Shown: positions 3,872 to 58,312 of the stretch, piece by piece | Position numbering within the stretch: position 1 is the first letter of the stretch | How the letters are laid out: the number at the start of each line of letters is the position of its first letter | Sequence record: PV419677.1 | Reading direction: 5' to 3' (one strand) | Length of the DNA: 64,000 nucleotides | DNA from: a phage | Notes under the pieces: generated by a model | Database searches by the model: none | What the model was told of the DNA's origin: nothing | Seen by the model: only the letters and a program-made list of their open reading frames with translations | Made by a program: the position numbers and the translations under genes

Positions 3872-3879
3872 TATAAATA
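3872..3879 (+). promoter_or_regulatory. late promoter (TATAAATA) for gene 34
   Basis: exact TATAAATA about 30 nt upstream of gp34 ATG. Confidence 0.6.
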
Positions 3880-12965: not shown

Positions 12966-13000
12966 CAACAAGGGGGAAATGCCCCCTTTGGAGTATAATT

Positions 13001-13801
13001 ATGGCAGTAGTTGGAGTTCCTGGCTGGATTGGAAGTTCAGCCGTAAATGAAACAGGACAACGATGGATGAGTCAAGCGGCTGGTCAATTAAGATTAGGTG
13101 TTCCTTGCTGGATGAGTCAATTTGCAGGTCGCTCAAGAGAAATTATTCACACGCTTGGAGCAGACCACAACTTTAACGGGCAATGGTTCCGCGACCGTTG
13201 CTTTGAAGCCGGTAGTGCGCCTATTGTTTTTAATCTTACAGGTACATTAGTATCTTATACCCGTGATGTTCCATTGTTCTTTATGTATGGGGATACTCCA
13301 AACGAATATGTTCAATTGAATATTGGTGGTGGGGTTCATATATGGGGCCGAGGTGGTCAAGGTGGATGGACCCACTCGGGTGGCGATGGCAACGGGCAAT
13401 GGGGTGGAACTTGTATTGTAAATGATATTGGCGGTCGTTTAAGAATTAATAATGGTGGGGTTATCTGCGGCGGTGGCGGCGGCGGTGGCGGCATCGCTTA
13501 TCGTCCTCACTCTGGTGCAAACTGGCAAGATATTGGTGGCGGTGGAGGAAGACCATTTGGCCTAGGCGGCGGTGGTGGATATTCAGGTGGCGGAGCTTCT
13601 TTGGATGGTCCAGGAGGTGGTTATCAATACGGAAATGCCCACTCTGGTCATGGTGGGGATGCCGGCGGAGCAGGTCAGAATGCATGGTCTGACGGTGGTA
13701 AAGTTCTAAAAGTCGGCGCTGGAGGCGGCGCAGGAGCTGCTGTTGCTGGAAGTTCTCCTACTTGGCATAATACAGGTGTTATCTACGGTTCCTGGCTATA
13801 G
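13001..13801 (+). CDS. 38: T2-type tail fibre adhesin gp38 (Gly-rich motifs flanking variable segments)
   Basis: 266 aa; conserved N-terminus, then multiple poly-Gly blocks (GGGGGGGG, GGGGG) separated by short variable segments. Confidence 0.85.
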
Positions 13802-13812
13802 TGCATAAGCTC

Positions 13813-13820
13813 TATAAATA
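13813..13820 (+). promoter_or_regulatory. late promoter (TATAAATA) for gene t
   Basis: TATAAATA then AAGGAGA Shine-Dalgarno upstream of t. Confidence 0.6.
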
Positions 13821-13838
13821 TCTTTAAAGGAGAAAAGT

Positions 13839-14492
13839 ATGGAACCAAAAGTAGGAATATCAATACCCGACCTACTTTTTGGACTTCTTGATAGAATTTT
13901 TAAAGATAATGCGACCGGGAAAGTTGTTTTTTCCCGGGTACTAGTTATTGTTCTATTATTTTTAATGGCGGTAATCTGGTATAAAGGTGATGCACTTTTA
14001 GATGCGTACAGGGATGCTTCATATGCCTCATACACTGAAATGATAAGGCAAGACCAGGATAACAGATTTAAAATTGCAGCTATCGAGCAAATCCAGATAG
14101 TCCACTCGTCAAGTGGGGCAGACTTTACAGCAATATATTCTTTTAGACCAACTAACCTTAACTACTTTGTGGATATGGTGGGTTACGAGGGGATATTGCC
14201 TGATACAGTCGACGAAAAAAATTTAGGTGGGTTTCCAATAGATAAGACTTCAGCGGAATATTTGGCGGGGGTTAATGGTAATTATTTTGAATCCAGCGTG
14301 GAATCTGTATTCTTACCAACAAAGAAAAAAAGCAGCTTCACATATATGTTCAGCTGCCCATTCTTTAATTTGGAAAACGTTTATGCAGGCACAGTCTCAC
14401 TGTACTGGTATAAGCAAAAACCCGACCTTGGTTTTGATAGGCTTTCTTCTATGTGTGGACAAGCAGGTCGTACGCTCGGGCGTACACGTTAG
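13839..14492 (+). CDS. t: holin T
   Basis: 217 aa (T4 218 aa); LDRIFKDNATGKV..., YMFSCPFFNLENVYAGT match recalled T4 holin. Confidence 0.9.
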   Translation: MEPKVGISIPDLLFGLLDRIFKDNATGKVVFSRVLVIVLLFLMAVIWYKGDALLDAYRDASYASYTEMIRQDQDNRFKIAAIEQIQIVHSSSGADFTAIYSFRPTNLNYFVDMVGYEGILPDTVDEKNLGGFPIDKTSAEYLAGVNGNYFESSVESVFLPTKKKSSFTYMFSCPFFNLENVYAGTVSLYWYKQKPDLGFDRLSSMCGQAGRTLGRTR

Positions 14493-14764
14493 AATCCGGA
14501 GGTATACATCATAAGATAACGGTGTATATCTTCGAATCCTTCGTTAAATTGTTCAATGATTTGTTCAATTTCATCTTCAGATAAACTTTTAAACAATTTG
14601 TTAAACGATACATTGTTTAACTCATTCCCATTCTCATTTCTCAATCCCAACTCATTCAAAAACGCGATAAACACATCGCGCTTCATCGTAATATCTTCCC
14701 GGTCGGTTTTAATCAAAATTGAAGTTATAGTAACAATTTCAGAAACGATTTCAAATTTAGTCAT
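14489..14764 (-). CDS. asiA: anti-sigma70 factor AsiA
   Basis: 91 aa; EIVTITSILIK...FIAFLNE...EFNEGFE..YRYL matches recalled T4 AsiA (90 aa). Confidence 0.9.
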   Translation of the reverse strand: MTKFEIVSEIVTITSILIKTDREDITMKRDVFIAFLNELGLRNENGNELNNVSFNKLFKSLSEDEIEQIIEQFNEGFEDIHRYLMMYTSGF

Positions 14765-14822
14765 TTTAATTTACTCAAGTATTCAATAAGACATTCAATT
14801 ATTCAGTAAGGGTATTATACTA

Positions 14823-14987
14823 TTATTCCTCTGGGTTGTACACATGATTTTCCATCTGTACAACATATTCCTGATACATCTGTTCAACTGGTTCCTGGAA
14901 CTTAAAATCAGCTCCAAGGAATTCCTCAAAGCAAGCCTGTTCGTGCGTACGTTGACCGGTGATGGTGTTCTCTAAGTTATGACTCAT
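14823..14987 (-). CDS. hypothetical small protein (54 aa)
   Basis: ATG with AGGGA Shine-Dalgarno; below the 60-aa ORF-track cutoff; between asiA and arn. Confidence 0.35.
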   Translation of the reverse strand: MSHNLENTITGQRTHEQACFEEFLGADFKFQEPVEQMYQEYVVQMENHVYNPEE

Positions 14988-15076
14988 AATGATTCCCTTT
15001 GTGCTTCTGCTTACGTTTGGACTGCATTTTGGTTTTCTTCTTGTCCTTATGGACAGACGCCTTATTGAAATCGTGC

Positions 15077-15355
15077 TTAGCTACCAGATTGTTCATGCAA
15101 TTTCCTTAATTGATATTCAAGAGAACTGATAATTTCTTTATTAGTTGCAATATACATATCACGTAGGAAGGGTTTCAGACCTTCTCTAACTCTATACGTG
15201 TTATCACTAATATCCTTTATATATTCATGGTCTAAAGCATCCCAAGCCGGCTGGTTAACATAAGTTCCCCAGTTATCTTCCATCATAGTGTTCAGACGTT
15301 TGATATGATTGATATGGGTTTCGATTGCATCAATCTGGAGTTGTTTAAGGTTCAT
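15077..15355 (-). CDS. arn: possible anti-restriction nuclease Arn
   Basis: 92 aa, same length and genomic slot as T4 Arn; assignment by synteny only. Confidence 0.45.
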   Translation of the reverse strand: MNLKQLQIDAIETHINHIKRLNTMMEDNWGTYVNQPAWDALDHEYIKDISDNTYRVREGLKPFLRDMYIATNKEIISSLEYQLRKLHEQSGS

Positions 15356-15966
15356 TAATAAAGGTCCTCTGAATAAAGTTCTTTTTCACTACCGCCACGT
15401 TCAATACGCACCTGATTTGCATAAGTCGCAATAATCATTGCTTCTTCGCGGGTCCAGTAATTGCTGTACTGGTCAATGAATCCTTGATTATCACCACAAA
15501 CATGGTCTGACACAAGTTTATCACTTACTTGGTCAAGCACTTCTGCCATATCCTTGGAATAATGTCTGGCACCAGGAATAACCAGAGTCCCACCATCTTT
15601 TAACTTAAATCGGTTGGCGGCACATACAATCCGTCGCTGATATTTTTCATTGTTATTCCAATGCGCAATCTGCCAACAGATTTCCGGGACTTCTTCCAGA
15701 ATATCTTTTTCATCGCATGTGTATCCATGTGCTTTAAATTTTTCAGCGAGGCTTTTGGGGGTTTCACGCGATTCTGGTGCTGGTAACATTTCTAAACGAG
15801 TGATAAACGGATTCATTTCACAATTACCTTCTTCATTATATTCGGTGTAATCACCGTATGCATGTAATTTAGCAGCGAGACTTTCAGGAGTCTCCCGAGA
15901 AAGAGCTTTATCTAACAAGGCCATACGGTCTTTAAAGGATAATGCTTTACCTTTTAATGGATTCAT
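15355..15966 (-). CDS. hypothetical protein with internal tandem repeat
   Basis: 203 aa; two N-terminal repeats ([18 protein letters not shown] / [18 protein letters not shown]); C-terminal IVCAAN...[12 protein letters not shown] motif of unknown family. Confidence 0.6.
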
Positions 15967-16310
15967 TTGAAAATCACCTTATAACCGTTATCTTTAGCGA
16001 ATTCTTGAATTTTAGCGGCGGTTTCAATTAAATCACCTTTATAATAGGATGATAATTTAATATCAACTGTTTTGCCTTCGCCATACGAAGTTATATTCAC
16101 TTTTTCCGTAAAAATAAGCTCAAGAAATCGCAATAGCTGCATACCAAATTCAAGAGTAACATTATCAATCTGGAGGTTAAGTTGATAAGTTTTCTTAATA
16201 CCATTCACCAGGGCACAGCGCTCATCCCAATCATTACGTTGTTCTTCAATCAATTTAAGGGAATGACCTTCGCCATCCCAATTTAGTTCCATAGGAATCA
16301 TTTGAACCAA
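15963..16310 (-). CDS. hypothetical protein
   Basis: 115 aa; stop/start overlap with neighbours. Confidence 0.5.
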
Positions 16311-55895: not shown

Positions 55896-56612
55896 ATGAA
55901 TTATAACATCATTTACCAAAAGCTTATTAGCAGAGCATTGAATCGCAAATTAACCACATACTCTGAAAGCCATCACATTATACCCCGTTGTATGGGTGGG
56001 GCTGACGACGCTTCAAATCTTGTTGATTTAACTCCCGAGGAACATTTCGTTTGCCATCAACTGTTGGTCAAAATGCATCCAAATAACGCTTCTTTGGTCT
56101 ATGCCGCGCGCATGATGACAGTTTCTGCACCAAATGCCGACAGAAGCAAAAATAAATTATTTGGATGGCTTCGTCGTAAAAACTTGGAAGCTCAACAAAA
56201 TAAAATTTTCTCCGATGAAACCAGAAAGAAAATGTCAGAATCCGCCAAATTAAAACCGAGAGTCGAATGTCCACACTGTGGAAAAACCGGTCTCGCTGGC
56301 AATATGAATCGTTGGCATTTTGATAACTGTTCCAAAGGTCCAAACAAGGTTGTTCATACTATTCCGGAAAAGCAAAAGCAAAAAATTTCAGTAGGTTTAA
56401 AACAAGCTAAACATGAAATTTTAAATTGTGAATTTTGCGGGCTTGAAGGTAAAAAGTGTGTTATATCCACTCACCGACAATTCTGCAAATCCAATCCAAA
56501 CCGGAAGAAAAAGGTGGACCCCAAAATTCAGTGTCCACACTGTAATGTAGTCAGTACGCCAGCTAATATGAAACGTTGGCATTTTGATAACTGCAAAATG
56601 AAGCCTCAATAA
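55896..56612 (+). CDS. HNH homing endonuclease with two C-terminal zinc fingers (mob-like)
   Basis: 238 aa from ATG at 55896; HNH core SHHIIPRCMGG...NLVDLTPEEHFVCH; two CPHCG...RWHFDNC fingers; plus strand amid minus-strand genes. Confidence 0.75.
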   Translation: MNYNIIYQKLISRALNRKLTTYSESHHIIPRCMGGADDASNLVDLTPEEHFVCHQLLVKMHPNNASLVYAARMMTVSAPNADRSKNKLFGWLRRKNLEAQQNKIFSDETRKKMSESAKLKPRVECPHCGKTGLAGNMNRWHFDNCSKGPNKVVHTIPEKQKQKISVGLKQAKHEILNCEFCGLEGKKCVISTHRQFCKSNPNRKKKVDPKIQCPHCNVVSTPANMKRWHFDNCKMKPQ

Positions 56613-56617
56613 GAGGC

Positions 56618-58312
56618 TCATTCCAGAACAGTAAATCGACCGACTTTTTTCATTTGAAGATGCTGTCCATATGCTTCTGGGTCATGGTCTCGGTGACTGA
56701 TGATAAACACGTTTTGACCTTCCAATTTATTGATAATTGCCTGGATAGCTTTGATGCCTTCGGCGTCAGTGGCTGAATCCATGACCTCATCCAGAATCAA
56801 CGTACTAATTTGCACACCAGATACTTTCGCAGCAATATCGCGCCATGTAAACAGCAATGCAATATCTATACGAGCTTTTTCACCCTGGCTAAATGATGCA
56901 TAGCTAAAGTCTTCACGTCCACGAGATTTAATCGTTTCGTTGAACTCTTCATCTAACGTAAAGCTATAATCAGCTTCCATAACTTTAAGATAAGCGTTTA
57001 TCTGCTTATTAAAGATAGGAATATATTTCTTAATAATCGCGCCCTTAATACCAGAATCTTTCAACATATCCGTTAGGATACCACGTTGATATTTTTCCAT
57101 CACAAGGTCGGATTTCTGTTTGACTATTTTATCAAGCTGGTCTTGGAGCATTTTAATGTCTGCTGCATGGTCAATGAATTCCGACTTGGCTTGCTCGATT
57201 AATGCTTTAACCTTTTTAGCTTTTTCGACAGTCTGGACTAAGGTTTGTTTCTTAGTTTGAATGTCTTGAGCTATTGTACGCTGGTTTTGTCTTGCCTTGG
57301 TATACGCATCAAATTGCTCCTGAACAACATTCTGGCGAGCTTTATGCTTATCAGCCGAAGCATTACATTCTTCAATCTTTGACTCAATCCTGGCGACAAT
57401 AGGGTCTCCTGGATGCAACTGACTGGCACAGGTCTGACAACAACCACCTTTCTCGTACAGACCAACAACCTTTCGATAATCGTCAATCTTCGACTTAATC
57501 AGGAATGATTCTTGCTTTAACTTCGTGAGTTCATGCTCAGGGTCTTCTCCCAAGATTATCTCGGTCAGTCTTGTCGTTGCTTCTTCGATAGTTGTCTTGA
57601 TTCCACGTGCTTCTGTGGCAAGTTCATCATACATCGTTTGCAGTCGCAACAGATTATCGCCTGACAATTTTCTTTGACGGTCTTCGTTGTCCTGATAGAT
57701 TTTAATCTGTTGAACAATACCATCATGCTGCACATCCATCACCTGGATTTGGCTATTGACTTCGCGGATAAGAGATTTGTTCAACTTATCCATATCGGCC
57801 AGTACAGAAACCTCTAAAAGGTCTTCGACAAGCTTTCTTCTGGCAGGAGTGGATAGGCCCATAAAAGGGGTATATCCAGCTGTGCCGAGTACGACAATTT
57901 GTTTGAAACTGGCGTATGACATTCCGATAAGCTGTTCAAATTCCGCTTGGAAGTCTTTACTGCTGGCAGATTCATCAAGACGTTTACCGCCACAAGAGAT
58001 TTCAAAAACATTGGGTTTTTGCCCGCGTTTGATATAGTATTCTTTTCCATCATATTCCATCCACAATTCAACGAGCATATCTTTTTTGTTGCTCGAGTTA
58101 ATCAGCTGACCTTTCTTTACATCACGGAAAGGCTTACCGAACATAGCAAAGGTAACCGCTTCAAGGAACGTAGATTTACCTGCGCCATTCTTGCCGGTGA
58201 CCAGAGTTTTCTGAACTTTATCCAGTTCAACAGTAATCGGTTGAGCACCAACCGACATAATATTTTTATAGATAACTTTCTTAAGCTTAAAAGTCTTCAT
58301 CGTAATAAGCAT
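56618..58312 (-). CDS. 46: recombination endonuclease subunit gp46 (Rad50-like)
   Basis: 564 aa (T4 560 aa); Walker A GKNGAGKST. Confidence 0.9.
   Translation of the reverse strand: MLITMKTFKLKKVIYKNIMSVGAQPITVELDKVQKTLVTGKNGAGKSTFLEAVTFAMFGKPFRDVKKGQLINSSNKKDMLVELWMEYDGKEYYIKRGQKPNVFEISCGGKRLDESASSKDFQAEFEQLIGMSYASFKQIVVLGTAGYTPFMGLSTPARRKLVEDLLEVSVLADMDKLNKSLIREVNSQIQVMDVQHDGIVQQIKIYQDNEDRQRKLSGDNLLRLQTMYDELATEARGIKTTIEEATTRLTEIILGEDPEHELTKLKQESFLIKSKIDDYRKVVGLYEKGGCCQTCASQLHPGDPIVARIESKIEECNASADKHKARQNVVQEQFDAYTKARQNQRTIAQDIQTKKQTLVQTVEKAKKVKALIEQAKSEFIDHAADIKMLQDQLDKIVKQKSDLVMEKYQRGILTDMLKDSGIKGAIIKKYIPIFNKQINAYLKVMEADYSFTLDEEFNETIKSRGREDFSYASFSQGEKARIDIALLFTWRDIAAKVSGVQISTLILDEVMDSATDAEGIKAIQAIINKLEGQNVFIISHRDHDPEAYGQHLQMKKVGRFTVLE

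What the first reader, a model, noticed from the sequence alone, without database searches (positions are those of the whole stretch)
14489..14492. Convergent overlap of holin t and asiA stop codons
The plus-strand holin gene t and the minus-strand asiA end within the same 4 nt, so late t and early asiA transcripts must terminate into each other with no intergenic terminator. Possible antisense interference between early and late transcription.
Basis: seen in the sequence. Interest (0 to 1): 0.2.

Follow-up and report, generated by a model that had tools for sequence, protein, structure and literature searches.

The report
Holin and anti-sigma genes share stops
Two phage genes on opposite strands, the late lysis gene t and the early anti-sigma gene asiA, end in the same four bases; this layout is real but ordinary and already annotated in T4-like phages, and a conserved RNA hairpin sits just past the t stop codon inside asiA.

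Summary
Holin t (13839..14492, +) and asiA (14489..14764, -) share the tetranucleotide TTAG at 14489-14492, which holds TAG for t and the complement of TAA for asiA. The window is a JS98-like Dhakavirus, and the same 4-nt overlap is already annotated in RefSeq JS98. Of 58 related loci, 20 overlap by 4 nt, 21 (T4 included) abut with no gap, and a few carry a small intergenic hairpin. TTAG is one of the four tetramers known to give the commonest convergent gene overlap. There is no intergenic terminator, but a 14-bp stem-loop (14497-14534) starts 5 nt after the t stop, inside the last asiA codons. It is far more stable than synonymous recodings (z about -4.6). It keeps 99.5% pairing across 14 distinct sequences from three genera, with two compensatory pairs, and its G.U pairs assign it to the t-sense RNA. 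It has no U-tract, so it is not a canonical terminator. It more likely marks or protects the 3' end of the t mRNA. Antisense interference is untested and is limited by the early/late timing of the two genes. The finding is ordinary and of low interest.

The parts
13813..13820 (+). TATAAATA, a T4-type late-promoter box 18 nt upstream of the t start codon
   Evidence: Exact match found. There are 7 matches in the window against 4.5 expected, so the motif alone is weak evidence. Its position directly upstream of a late gene fits T4 late promoters. Function is inferred.
13839..14492 (+). Gene t, holin T, 217 aa, stop codon TAG at 14490-14492
   Evidence: ORF listed. Pfam PF11031 match, E 1.8e-66, covering residues 8-216. 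98% identical to JS98 t. Follows the gp37-like and gp38 genes as in JS98.
14489..14492 (.). TTAG, the 4-nt convergent overlap of the t and asiA stop codons
   Evidence: Read directly from the sequence. Same overlap annotated in JS98. One of the four tetramers (CTAA, TTAA, CTAG, TTAG) that allow a convergent stop overlap (PMC2174442).
14489..14764 (-). Gene asiA, anti-sigma-70 factor, 91 aa, stop codon TAA (complement of 14489-14491)
   Evidence: ORF listed. Pfam PF09010 match, E 1.7e-20. 100% identical to JS98 AsiA.
14497..14534 (+). Stem-loop in the t-sense RNA, embedded in asiA codons 77-89. 14497-14510 pairs with 14521-14534 (14 bp, 3 of them G.U); the loop is 14511-14520.
   Evidence: Folding energy is -17.6 kcal/mol on the + strand and -9.8 on the - strand. 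Synonymous recoding of asiA gives z -3.9 and z -4.56 with 0 of 150 recodings as stable. 99.5% of cells are paired across 14 distinct sequences, 2 pairs show compensatory changes and 2 G.U pairs are near-invariant. No U-tract follows.
14470..14485 (.). Small hairpin GTACGC-TCGG-GCGTAC inside the last t codons. It comes from the repeated Arg-Thr codons CGT-AC. It is found only in the JS98 subclade and is probably incidental.
   Evidence: Energy about -9 kcal/mol on either strand. Absent from L007-type and CIP9-type relatives that encode the same peptide. The asiA-sense recoding test is not significant in this window (z +0.15).
14814..14842 (-). Sigma-70-type promoter-like site (TGTACA, 17 nt, TATAAT; 10 of 12 matches) about 50 nt upstream of the asiA start. 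It is a candidate early promoter.
   Evidence: Consensus scan. This is a motif match only; function is inferred.

Best explanation
This is the ordinary, inherited boundary between two transcription units in a JS98-like T4-type phage. One unit is the late tail-fibre and lysis block (genes 34 to 38 and t, + strand). The other is an early block (the arn genes and asiA, - strand). Genome compaction has left no spacer, and the two stop codons interlock as TTAG, which is the commonest kind of convergent overlap. Because there is no spacer, any RNA 3'-end signal has to sit inside the opposing gene. In this lineage that signal is a conserved 14-bp stem-loop in the t-sense RNA, starting 5 nt after the t stop and built from synonymous and tolerated codon choices in the last asiA codons. 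I infer that it pauses RNA polymerase or blocks 3' exonucleases, and so defines a stable 3' end for the late t mRNA about 45 nt into asiA. It is not an efficient intrinsic terminator. The early asiA transcript has no comparable structure here. It probably reads some distance into antisense t and is then ended by Rho or by decay. Shown: the gene identities, the overlap, its conservation, and the existence and selection of the hairpin together with its strand assignment. Inferred: what the hairpin does, where transcripts actually end, and that antisense effects are minor.
For: Identities and overlap. The same overlap is annotated in JS98 and other relatives. Junction survey of 58 loci: -4 nt in 20, 0 nt in 21, +3 to +26 nt in 8, and larger gaps only where an extra ORF or a broken assembly intervenes. 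The tight convergent layout reaches Acinetobacter phages of the Twarogvirinae. Hairpin evidence. The recoding test is calibrated: 57 interior control regions give mean z +0.21, with 3.5% at p<=0.05 and none at p<=0.01. Near the junction, 9 of 19 lineages (t-sense) and 10 of 19 (asiA-sense) reach p<=0.05. Other lineages place hairpin-plus-T-tract elements in the opposing gene or in a short spacer. Examples are T4 at +42, Acinetobacter phages at +7, and L037/L039 with GGGAGAC-TTCG-GTCTCCC between the stops. The four tetramers, the modal 4-nt overlap and embedded terminators in 21 of 58 E. coli convergent overlaps are described in PMC2174442. Mapped 3' ends of T4 transcripts are thought to be ends of stable RNA rather than termination sites (PMC6024815). 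Timing: T4 asiA RNA appears at 1 min and late genes start at about 7 min (PMC9697503).
Against: There is no transcript data for this phage or for JS98. The hairpin lacks a U-tract, so its role in termination or stabilisation is a guess. The covariation rests on only two compensatory pairs, which probably reflect two events, within one clade. The 19 lineages tested are not phylogenetically independent; WIN, L007, L020 and PM2 belong to one clade. In T4 motA-am infections, t and 38 signals rise while 79% of late genes fall at least 2-fold (PMC6024815). If that rise is antisense read-through from asiA, read-through may be substantial and could matter for regulation.
Confidence: 0.72

Rival explanations
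1. The junction is a regulatory antisense device. Early asiA transcripts read into antisense t and damp premature holin expression. Alternatively or additionally, late t transcripts read into antisense asiA and help shut AsiA off. In this reading the spacer-free layout is kept by selection for that purpose.
For: Tight convergence of t and asiA is conserved from Tevenvirinae to Twarogvirinae. No canonical terminator lies at the junction in this lineage. In T4 motA-am infection, t and 38 signals rise while other late genes fall. That study counted reads with featureCounts and did not state a strandedness setting (PMC6024815). The pattern would fit early read-through across the junction.
Against: Some lineages have an intergenic hairpin between the stops, and many have embedded hairpin-plus-T-tract elements. 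That points to selection for stopping or trimming transcripts at the junction, not for running through it. Aeromonas phages have an extra ORF between asiA and t, and Proteus phage Pm5461 has no t next to asiA. The early/late timing limits co-occurrence of the two RNAs. Gene order is strongly conserved across T4-like genomes in general (my own knowledge), so conserved adjacency is weak evidence.
Confidence: 0.1
2. The overlap is neutral and the hairpin has no function. In this view the hairpin is a by-product of the conserved AsiA C-terminal peptide (IHRYLMMYT), whose Tyr, Ile and Thr codons tend to form inverted repeats.
For: T4 has a partly similar GTATAC...GATATAC arrangement at the same codons. 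The stem is AT-rich, and 9 of its 14 pairs never vary.
Against: Recodings that keep the same peptide average about -8 kcal/mol against -17.6 observed, and 0 of 150 reach the observed value. A Thr-to-Ala change in one arm is matched by a synonymous GAT-to-GAC change in the other arm. A Gly-to-Asn change is matched by the third base of a Phe-to-Tyr change. Control regions show no such excess of structure.
Confidence: 0.13
3. The stem-loop acts in the asiA mRNA (- sense), for example as a 3' stabiliser of the early transcript, rather than in the t mRNA.
For: The - sense also folds (-9.8 kcal/mol). The JS98-type sequence gives z -2.6 on the - strand when the small 14470-14485 hairpin is included.
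Against: Three G.U pairs on the + strand become C.A mismatches on the - strand. Two of them are invariant or nearly so across the clade. The - strand z-scores are not significant in L007-type and CIP9-type relatives. On the - strand the element lies inside the translated asiA ORF, where ribosomes would unfold it.
Confidence: 0.05

Closest known systems
t/asiA junction of Escherichia phage JS98 (RefSeq NC_010105) and other Dhakavirus genomes
   Same: Same genes, same order and same TTAG 4-nt overlap, already annotated (t 160588..161241, asiA complement 161238..161513). AsiA is 100% identical and T is 98% identical. The embedded hairpin is identical.
   Different: Essentially nothing at the junction. 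The window is a roughly 97% identical relative. The hairpin is not annotated in those records.
t/asiA junction of phage T4 (NC_000866)
   Same: The late t and early asiA genes converge with no spacer (t 160221..160877, asiA complement 160878..161150). A selected t-sense hairpin is also embedded in asiA (z -4.9).
   Different: The T4 stops abut (TAA|TTA, gap 0) and do not interlock. The T4 hairpin lies at +42, is followed by a T-rich tail (AAAACCCTC...GAGGGTTTT CTTATCTTCT) and so looks like a real intrinsic terminator. The window's hairpin lies at +5 and has no U-tract.
Four-nucleotide convergent stop-codon overlaps in prokaryotic genomes (Lillo and Krakauer 2007, PMC2174442)
   Same: TTAG is one of the four tetramers named there. 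Four nt is the modal overlap length. Terminators of overlapping convergent genes have to lie inside the partner's coding sequence, and this was seen in 21 of 58 E. coli convergent overlaps.
   Different: Here the pair joins an early and a late phage transcription unit, so the two promoters are mostly active at different times.
Short intergenic bidirectional hairpins between t and asiA in other T4-like phages (loci L037, L039, L012/L013)
   Same: Same gene pair and the same need to end two converging transcripts. A stem-loop lies within a few nt of the t stop.
   Different: In those phages the hairpin sits in an 11-26 nt spacer (for example GGGAGAC-TTCG-GTCTCCC with flanking A/T runs) and is symmetric. 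Here it is inside asiA and favours one strand.
Sense/antisense transcription in T4 (gene 32 sense and antisense RNAs, Belin et al. 1987; classical 'anti-late' RNA)
   Same: This is a precedent for early-strand transcripts running antisense into late genes in T4-type phages. The gene 32 paper appears as reference 83 of PMC3014915. The anti-late RNA literature is recalled from my own knowledge; my search for it found nothing.
   Different: No data tie those observations to the t/asiA junction or to this phage.

Membership tests
Phage holin T (Pfam PF11031) | Full-length match to the family profile above the curated cut-off | tested here: met
   224.4 bits against a cut-off of 22.2; residues 8-216 match profile positions 5-233.
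Phage holin T (Pfam PF11031) | Conserved residues and C-terminal motif shared with T4 T and distant homologues | tested here: met
   Alignment of 12 holins has 48 invariant columns, and the C-terminus ...C-G-Q-A-x-R-x-L-G-R-x-R/K is kept.
Phage holin T (Pfam PF11031) | Late expression and a position after the tail-fibre genes 37/38 | tested here: inconclusive
   A TATAAATA box lies 18 nt upstream, and the gene follows the 1078-aa tail-fibre ORF (gp37-like by synteny with JS98) and gp38. The promoter is a motif match only.
AsiA anti-sigma factor (Pfam PF09010) | Match to the family profile above the curated cut-off, and a size of about 90 aa | tested here: met
   73.3 bits against a cut-off of 25; 91 aa. 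100% identical to JS98 AsiA and about 49% identical to T2/T4-type AsiA.
AsiA anti-sigma factor (Pfam PF09010) | Binding to sigma-70 region 4 and co-activation with MotA | not testable with these tools
   This needs biochemistry. It is assumed from homology.
Four-nt convergent stop-codon overlap (CTAA, TTAA, CTAG, TTAG class) | Two real genes on opposite strands whose stop codons share the central 2 nt of one of the four tetramers | tested here: met
   TTAG at 14489-14492. Both ORFs are confirmed genes. The class is defined in PMC2174442.
Intrinsic (Rho-independent) terminator | Stable stem-loop formed in the nascent RNA | tested here: met
   14-bp stem at -17.6 kcal/mol on the t-sense strand, conserved with compensatory changes.
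Intrinsic (Rho-independent) terminator | A run of U immediately 3' of the stem | tested here: not met
   The sequence after the stem is AATCCTTCGTTAAATT. Neither the tool scan nor my scan requiring at least 5 T in 8 nt reports a site here, although both find such sites in T4 and in Acinetobacter phages.
Intergenic bidirectional terminator | A hairpin located between the two stop codons, usable from both strands | tested here: not met
   There is no intergenic space (gap -4). The hairpin is much weaker on the - strand (-9.8 against -17.6 kcal/mol).
Cis-antisense regulation or transcriptional interference between convergent genes | Both transcripts present together and extending into each other, with an effect on expression | not testable with these tools
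   No transcript data exist for this phage. Only indirect T4 data are available.

The most novel reading that the evidence does not exclude
The spacer-free t/asiA junction with its embedded strand-specific hairpins is a conserved timing device. Read-through of the early asiA unit lays antisense RNA over t (and 38) and keeps the lethal holin silent until late transcription takes over. The t-sense hairpin then limits how far late transcripts invade asiA. The unexplained rise of t and 38 signal in T4 motA-am infection would be the footprint of that antisense RNA.
Probability: 0.07. Interest if true: 0.45.

Novelty: already known. Interest (0 to 1): 0.12.

Why it matters
The overlap itself matters little. 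It is an annotated, common product of genome compaction, and it tells annotators only that both gene calls are correct. One modest point is worth keeping. At this junction, stem-loops just past each stop codon recur across T4-like phages and appear to be selected, and they are written into the coding sequence of the opposing gene. That gives concrete sites to test for where late and early transcripts end. It also suggests a cheap reanalysis of existing stranded T4 RNA-seq data that could explain a published anomaly in t and 38 expression.

Tried and rejected
1. Canonical terminators. The tool scan of 13000-16000 found 3 sites against 2.8 expected, none at the junction. My own scan found none in the Dhakavirus clade.

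2. Known RNA families. Rfam returned no match up to E = 1 in 13000-16000.

3. Literature. I searched for transcript mapping, antisense RNA or terminators at t/asiA. Nothing was specific to this junction. The 2003 T4 genome review (PMC150520) is not held. The 'anti-late RNA' search returned only irrelevant papers.

4. A rut-like C-rich stretch. 14573-14652 on the t-sense strand has 19 C and 4 G. I gave it no weight, because RNA antisense to purine-rich AT-rich coding sequence is usually C>G.

5. The small hairpin at 14470-14485. I rejected it as a conserved element. It arises from the palindromic CGTACG of repeated Arg-Thr codons and is missing in relatives that encode the same peptide.

6. A crude greedy ORF map meant to compare convergent junctions within the window. 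Most of the small + strand ORFs it produced look spurious, so I drew no statistics from it.

7. Large protein database searches and structure prediction were not run, because Pfam and the annotated relatives settled the identities.

Full report
**Observation.**
Bases 14489-14492 read TTAG. The + strand ORF 13839..14492 (217 aa) ends with TAG at 14490-14492. The - strand ORF 14489..14764 (91 aa) ends with TAA, the reverse complement of 14489-14491. The + ORF matches Pfam Phage_holin_T (PF11031, E 1.8e-66, nearly full length). The - ORF matches AsiA (PF09010, E 1.7e-20). The upstream + ORF is a T2/T6-type gp38 adhesin (PF05268 and PF21721).

**Source and prior annotation.**
The 1.2 kb around the junction is 97% identical to Escherichia phage JS98 and up to 99% identical to other Dhakavirus isolates. 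RefSeq JS98 already annotates t at 160588..161241 and asiA at complement 161238..161513, which is the same 4-nt overlap. Bp7, dhabil, PSD2002, Pectobacterium phage PM2 and Salmonella phage CGG4-1 are annotated the same way. In T4 the two genes abut exactly: t 160221..160877 and asiA complement 160878..161150, with the sequence TAA|TTA.

**How common the layout is.**
I oriented every fetched locus on t, located both stop codons and measured the gap.
- Of 58 loci with both genes, 20 have -4 nt, always as CGT-TAR with the T of the last Arg codon shared.
- 21 loci have a gap of 0.
- One locus has -8, and eight have +3 to +26.
- The rest have larger gaps caused by an intervening ORF (Aeromonas phage 25 type) or by broken assemblies (L030).

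The zero-gap state also occurs in Acinetobacter phage Morttis of the Twarogvirinae, in a Marfavirus and in a Jiaodavirus. Tight convergence of t and asiA is therefore old. Proteus phage Pm5461 lacks the adjacency.

TTAG is one of the four tetramers (CTAA, TTAA, CTAG, TTAG) that let two convergent stops interlock, and 4 nt is the modal overlap length in prokaryotes (PMC2174442). The overlap is real and inherited. It is also a textbook outcome of compaction, and the zero-gap alternative is equally frequent, so nothing shows selection for the overlap itself.

**Transcription signals.**
A TATAAATA box lies at 13813-13820, 18 nt before the t start codon. The other two + strand matches are at 3872 and 9030, within or just upstream of the tail-fibre block. 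The motif count in the window is only 7 against 4.5 expected, so this is a positional argument. A sigma-70-type site (TGTACA, 17 nt, TATAAT) lies about 50 nt upstream of asiA. No canonical hairpin-plus-U-tract terminator lies near the junction on either strand. Rfam finds nothing.

**What lies just past the stop codons.**
Folding the junction shows a 14-bp stem-loop on the t-sense strand. Bases 14497-14510 pair with 14521-14534, the loop is 14511-14520, and the stem starts 5 nt after the t stop. It lies inside asiA codons 77-89. Its energy is -17.6 kcal/mol on the + strand but only -9.8 on the - strand, because three G.U pairs become C.A mismatches.

I ran three tests.
- **Synonymous recoding.** I resampled asiA codons while keeping the peptide and using the window's codon usage. 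Recodings averaged about -8 kcal/mol, and the native sequence gave z -3.3 to -4.0 across the whole clade. In a sliding 45-nt version the window gave z -4.56, with 0 of 150 recodings as stable.
- **Comparative pairing.** I aligned 17 sequences (14 distinct) from Dhakavirus, CIP9-like Enterobacter phages and Mosugukvirus PM2. Of all cells, 99.5% are paired, against 27-62% for slid registers. Two pairs carry compensatory changes (U-A to C-G). One couples a Thr-to-Ala change with a synonymous GAT-to-GAC change. Two further pairs vary on one side only, and two G.U pairs are invariant or nearly so. The two compensatory pairs probably reflect only two events, so this evidence is modest.
- **Calibration.** The same recoding test on 57 interior control regions of the same genes gave mean z +0.21, with 3.5% at p<=0.05 and none at p<=0.01.

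The hairpin is therefore a selected feature, and the G.U pattern assigns it to the t-sense RNA. It is followed by AATCCTTCGTT and not by a U-run, so it fails the definition of an intrinsic terminator.

**The same theme in relatives.**
In the first 110 nt past each stop, 9 of 19 representative lineages (t-sense) and 10 of 19 (asiA-sense) have a local hairpin significantly more stable than recodings. These lineages are not independent. Several of the hairpins are proper terminator-like elements embedded in the opposing gene.
- T4 has AAAACCCTC...GAGGGTTTT followed by CTTATCTTCT at +42 (z -4.9).
- Acinetobacter phages have a hairpin followed by TTTTTT at +7.
- Several lineages have GCGGCTTG...CAAGCCGC followed by TTTTT in the asiA sense, inside the conserved C-terminal codons of t.

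Lineages with a short spacer fill it with a hairpin, for example GGGAGAC-TTCG-GTCTCCC in L037 and L039. This pattern points to selection for ending or trimming transcripts at the junction. It matches the report that in E. coli 21 of 58 convergent overlaps carry a rho-independent terminator inside the partner's coding sequence (PMC2174442). In this window only the t-sense element is present. The small GTACGC-TCGG-GCGTAC hairpin at 14470-14485 comes from repeated Arg-Thr codons. It is absent from relatives with the same peptide and is not significant.

**Mechanism.**
The following are shown: the identities, the overlap, its conservation, and the existence, selection and strand of the hairpin.

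The following are inferred.
- The hairpin pauses polymerase or blocks 3' exonucleases, giving the late t mRNA a defined, stable 3' end about 45 nt into asiA. This fits the view that mapped T4 3' ends are ends of stable RNA rather than termination sites (PMC6024815).
- The asiA transcript reads some way into antisense t and is then removed by Rho or by decay.
- Mutual interference is small because of timing. In T4, asiA RNA appears at 1 min and late genes start at about 7 min (PMC9697503).

Any translatable t or asiA mRNA must contain its own stop codon.

In T4 motA-am infection at 5 min, 79% of late genes fall at least 2-fold, yet t and 38 rise. The authors call this an unusual expression mechanism (PMC6024815). 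The library was stranded, but counting used featureCounts with no strandedness stated. [quoted passage not shown] Since 44% of early genes rise in that mutant, early read-through from asiA across the zero-gap junction could explain the result. This is my conjecture and was not tested. The data are public (GEO GSE111808).

**Verdict.**
It is already annotated and belongs to a well-described class. The finding is of low interest. The only new detail is the recurrent embedded hairpins at this junction.

Noticed in passing
window 15355-15966 (- strand): The Arn.3-like ORF is 203 aa here against 162 aa in JS98. The extra 43 aa or so look like a diverged duplicate of the neighbouring segment SRETPxSLAxKxxAxG. 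Tandem Repeats Finder did not report it at the DNA level.
   Followed up: partly
window 55896-56612 (+ strand) and 56618-58312 (- strand): A 238-aa + strand ORF sits in an otherwise - strand block. It has only weak, sub-threshold HNH and zinc-ribbon matches and may be a homing endonuclease. It converges with a 5-nt gap on a 564-aa SMC_N/AAA_23 protein that looks like gp46.
   Followed up: partly
T4 locus L002 2420-2462 (NC_000866 about 160919-160961), and related loci: T4 carries a terminator-like hairpin, AAAACCCTC...GAGGGTTTT followed by CTTATCTTCT, on the t-sense strand 42 nt past the t stop, inside asiA. It is far more stable than synonymous recodings (z -4.9). No such feature is annotated in the RefSeq record.
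   Followed up: partly
19 representative t/asiA loci (WIN, L002, L007, L011, L012, L014, L017, L018, L020, L027, L028, L032, L034-L036, L044, L051, L052, L063): Stem-loops more stable than synonymous recodings are enriched in the 110 nt past each stop codon: 9 of 19 lineages in the t sense and 10 of 19 in the asiA sense at p<=0.05. Only 3.5% of 57 interior control regions reach that level.
   Followed up: yes
L037 2152-2177 and L039 2149-2165 (IMG/VR contigs): These T4-like phages have a 17-26 nt spacer between the t and asiA stops. It is filled by a GGGAGAC-TTCG-GTCTCCC hairpin (UUCG tetraloop) with flanking A/T runs, which looks like a compact bidirectional terminator.
   Followed up: partly
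L030 (IMGVR_UViG_2974741249, 155101-bp contig; same length as Escherichia phage vB_EcoM_005, MK295203.1): The t/asiA region contains duplicated and interleaved pieces of t, asiA and neighbouring sequence, with a truncated t. This is most likely an assembly error.
   Followed up: no
Literature: T4 genes t and 38 (NC_000866 159649-160877): Published RNA-seq and RT-qPCR show t and 38 rising in a motA-am infection while most late genes fall, and this is unexplained. No strandedness setting is stated for the read counting. Early read-through from asiA is a possible cause (PMC6024815).
   Followed up: partly
window 13467-13492 (+ strand, inside gp38): A perfect 12-nt tandem repeat (GCGGCGGTGGCG, 2.2 copies) lies in the glycine-rich region of the T2/T6-type gp38 adhesin.
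   Followed up: no
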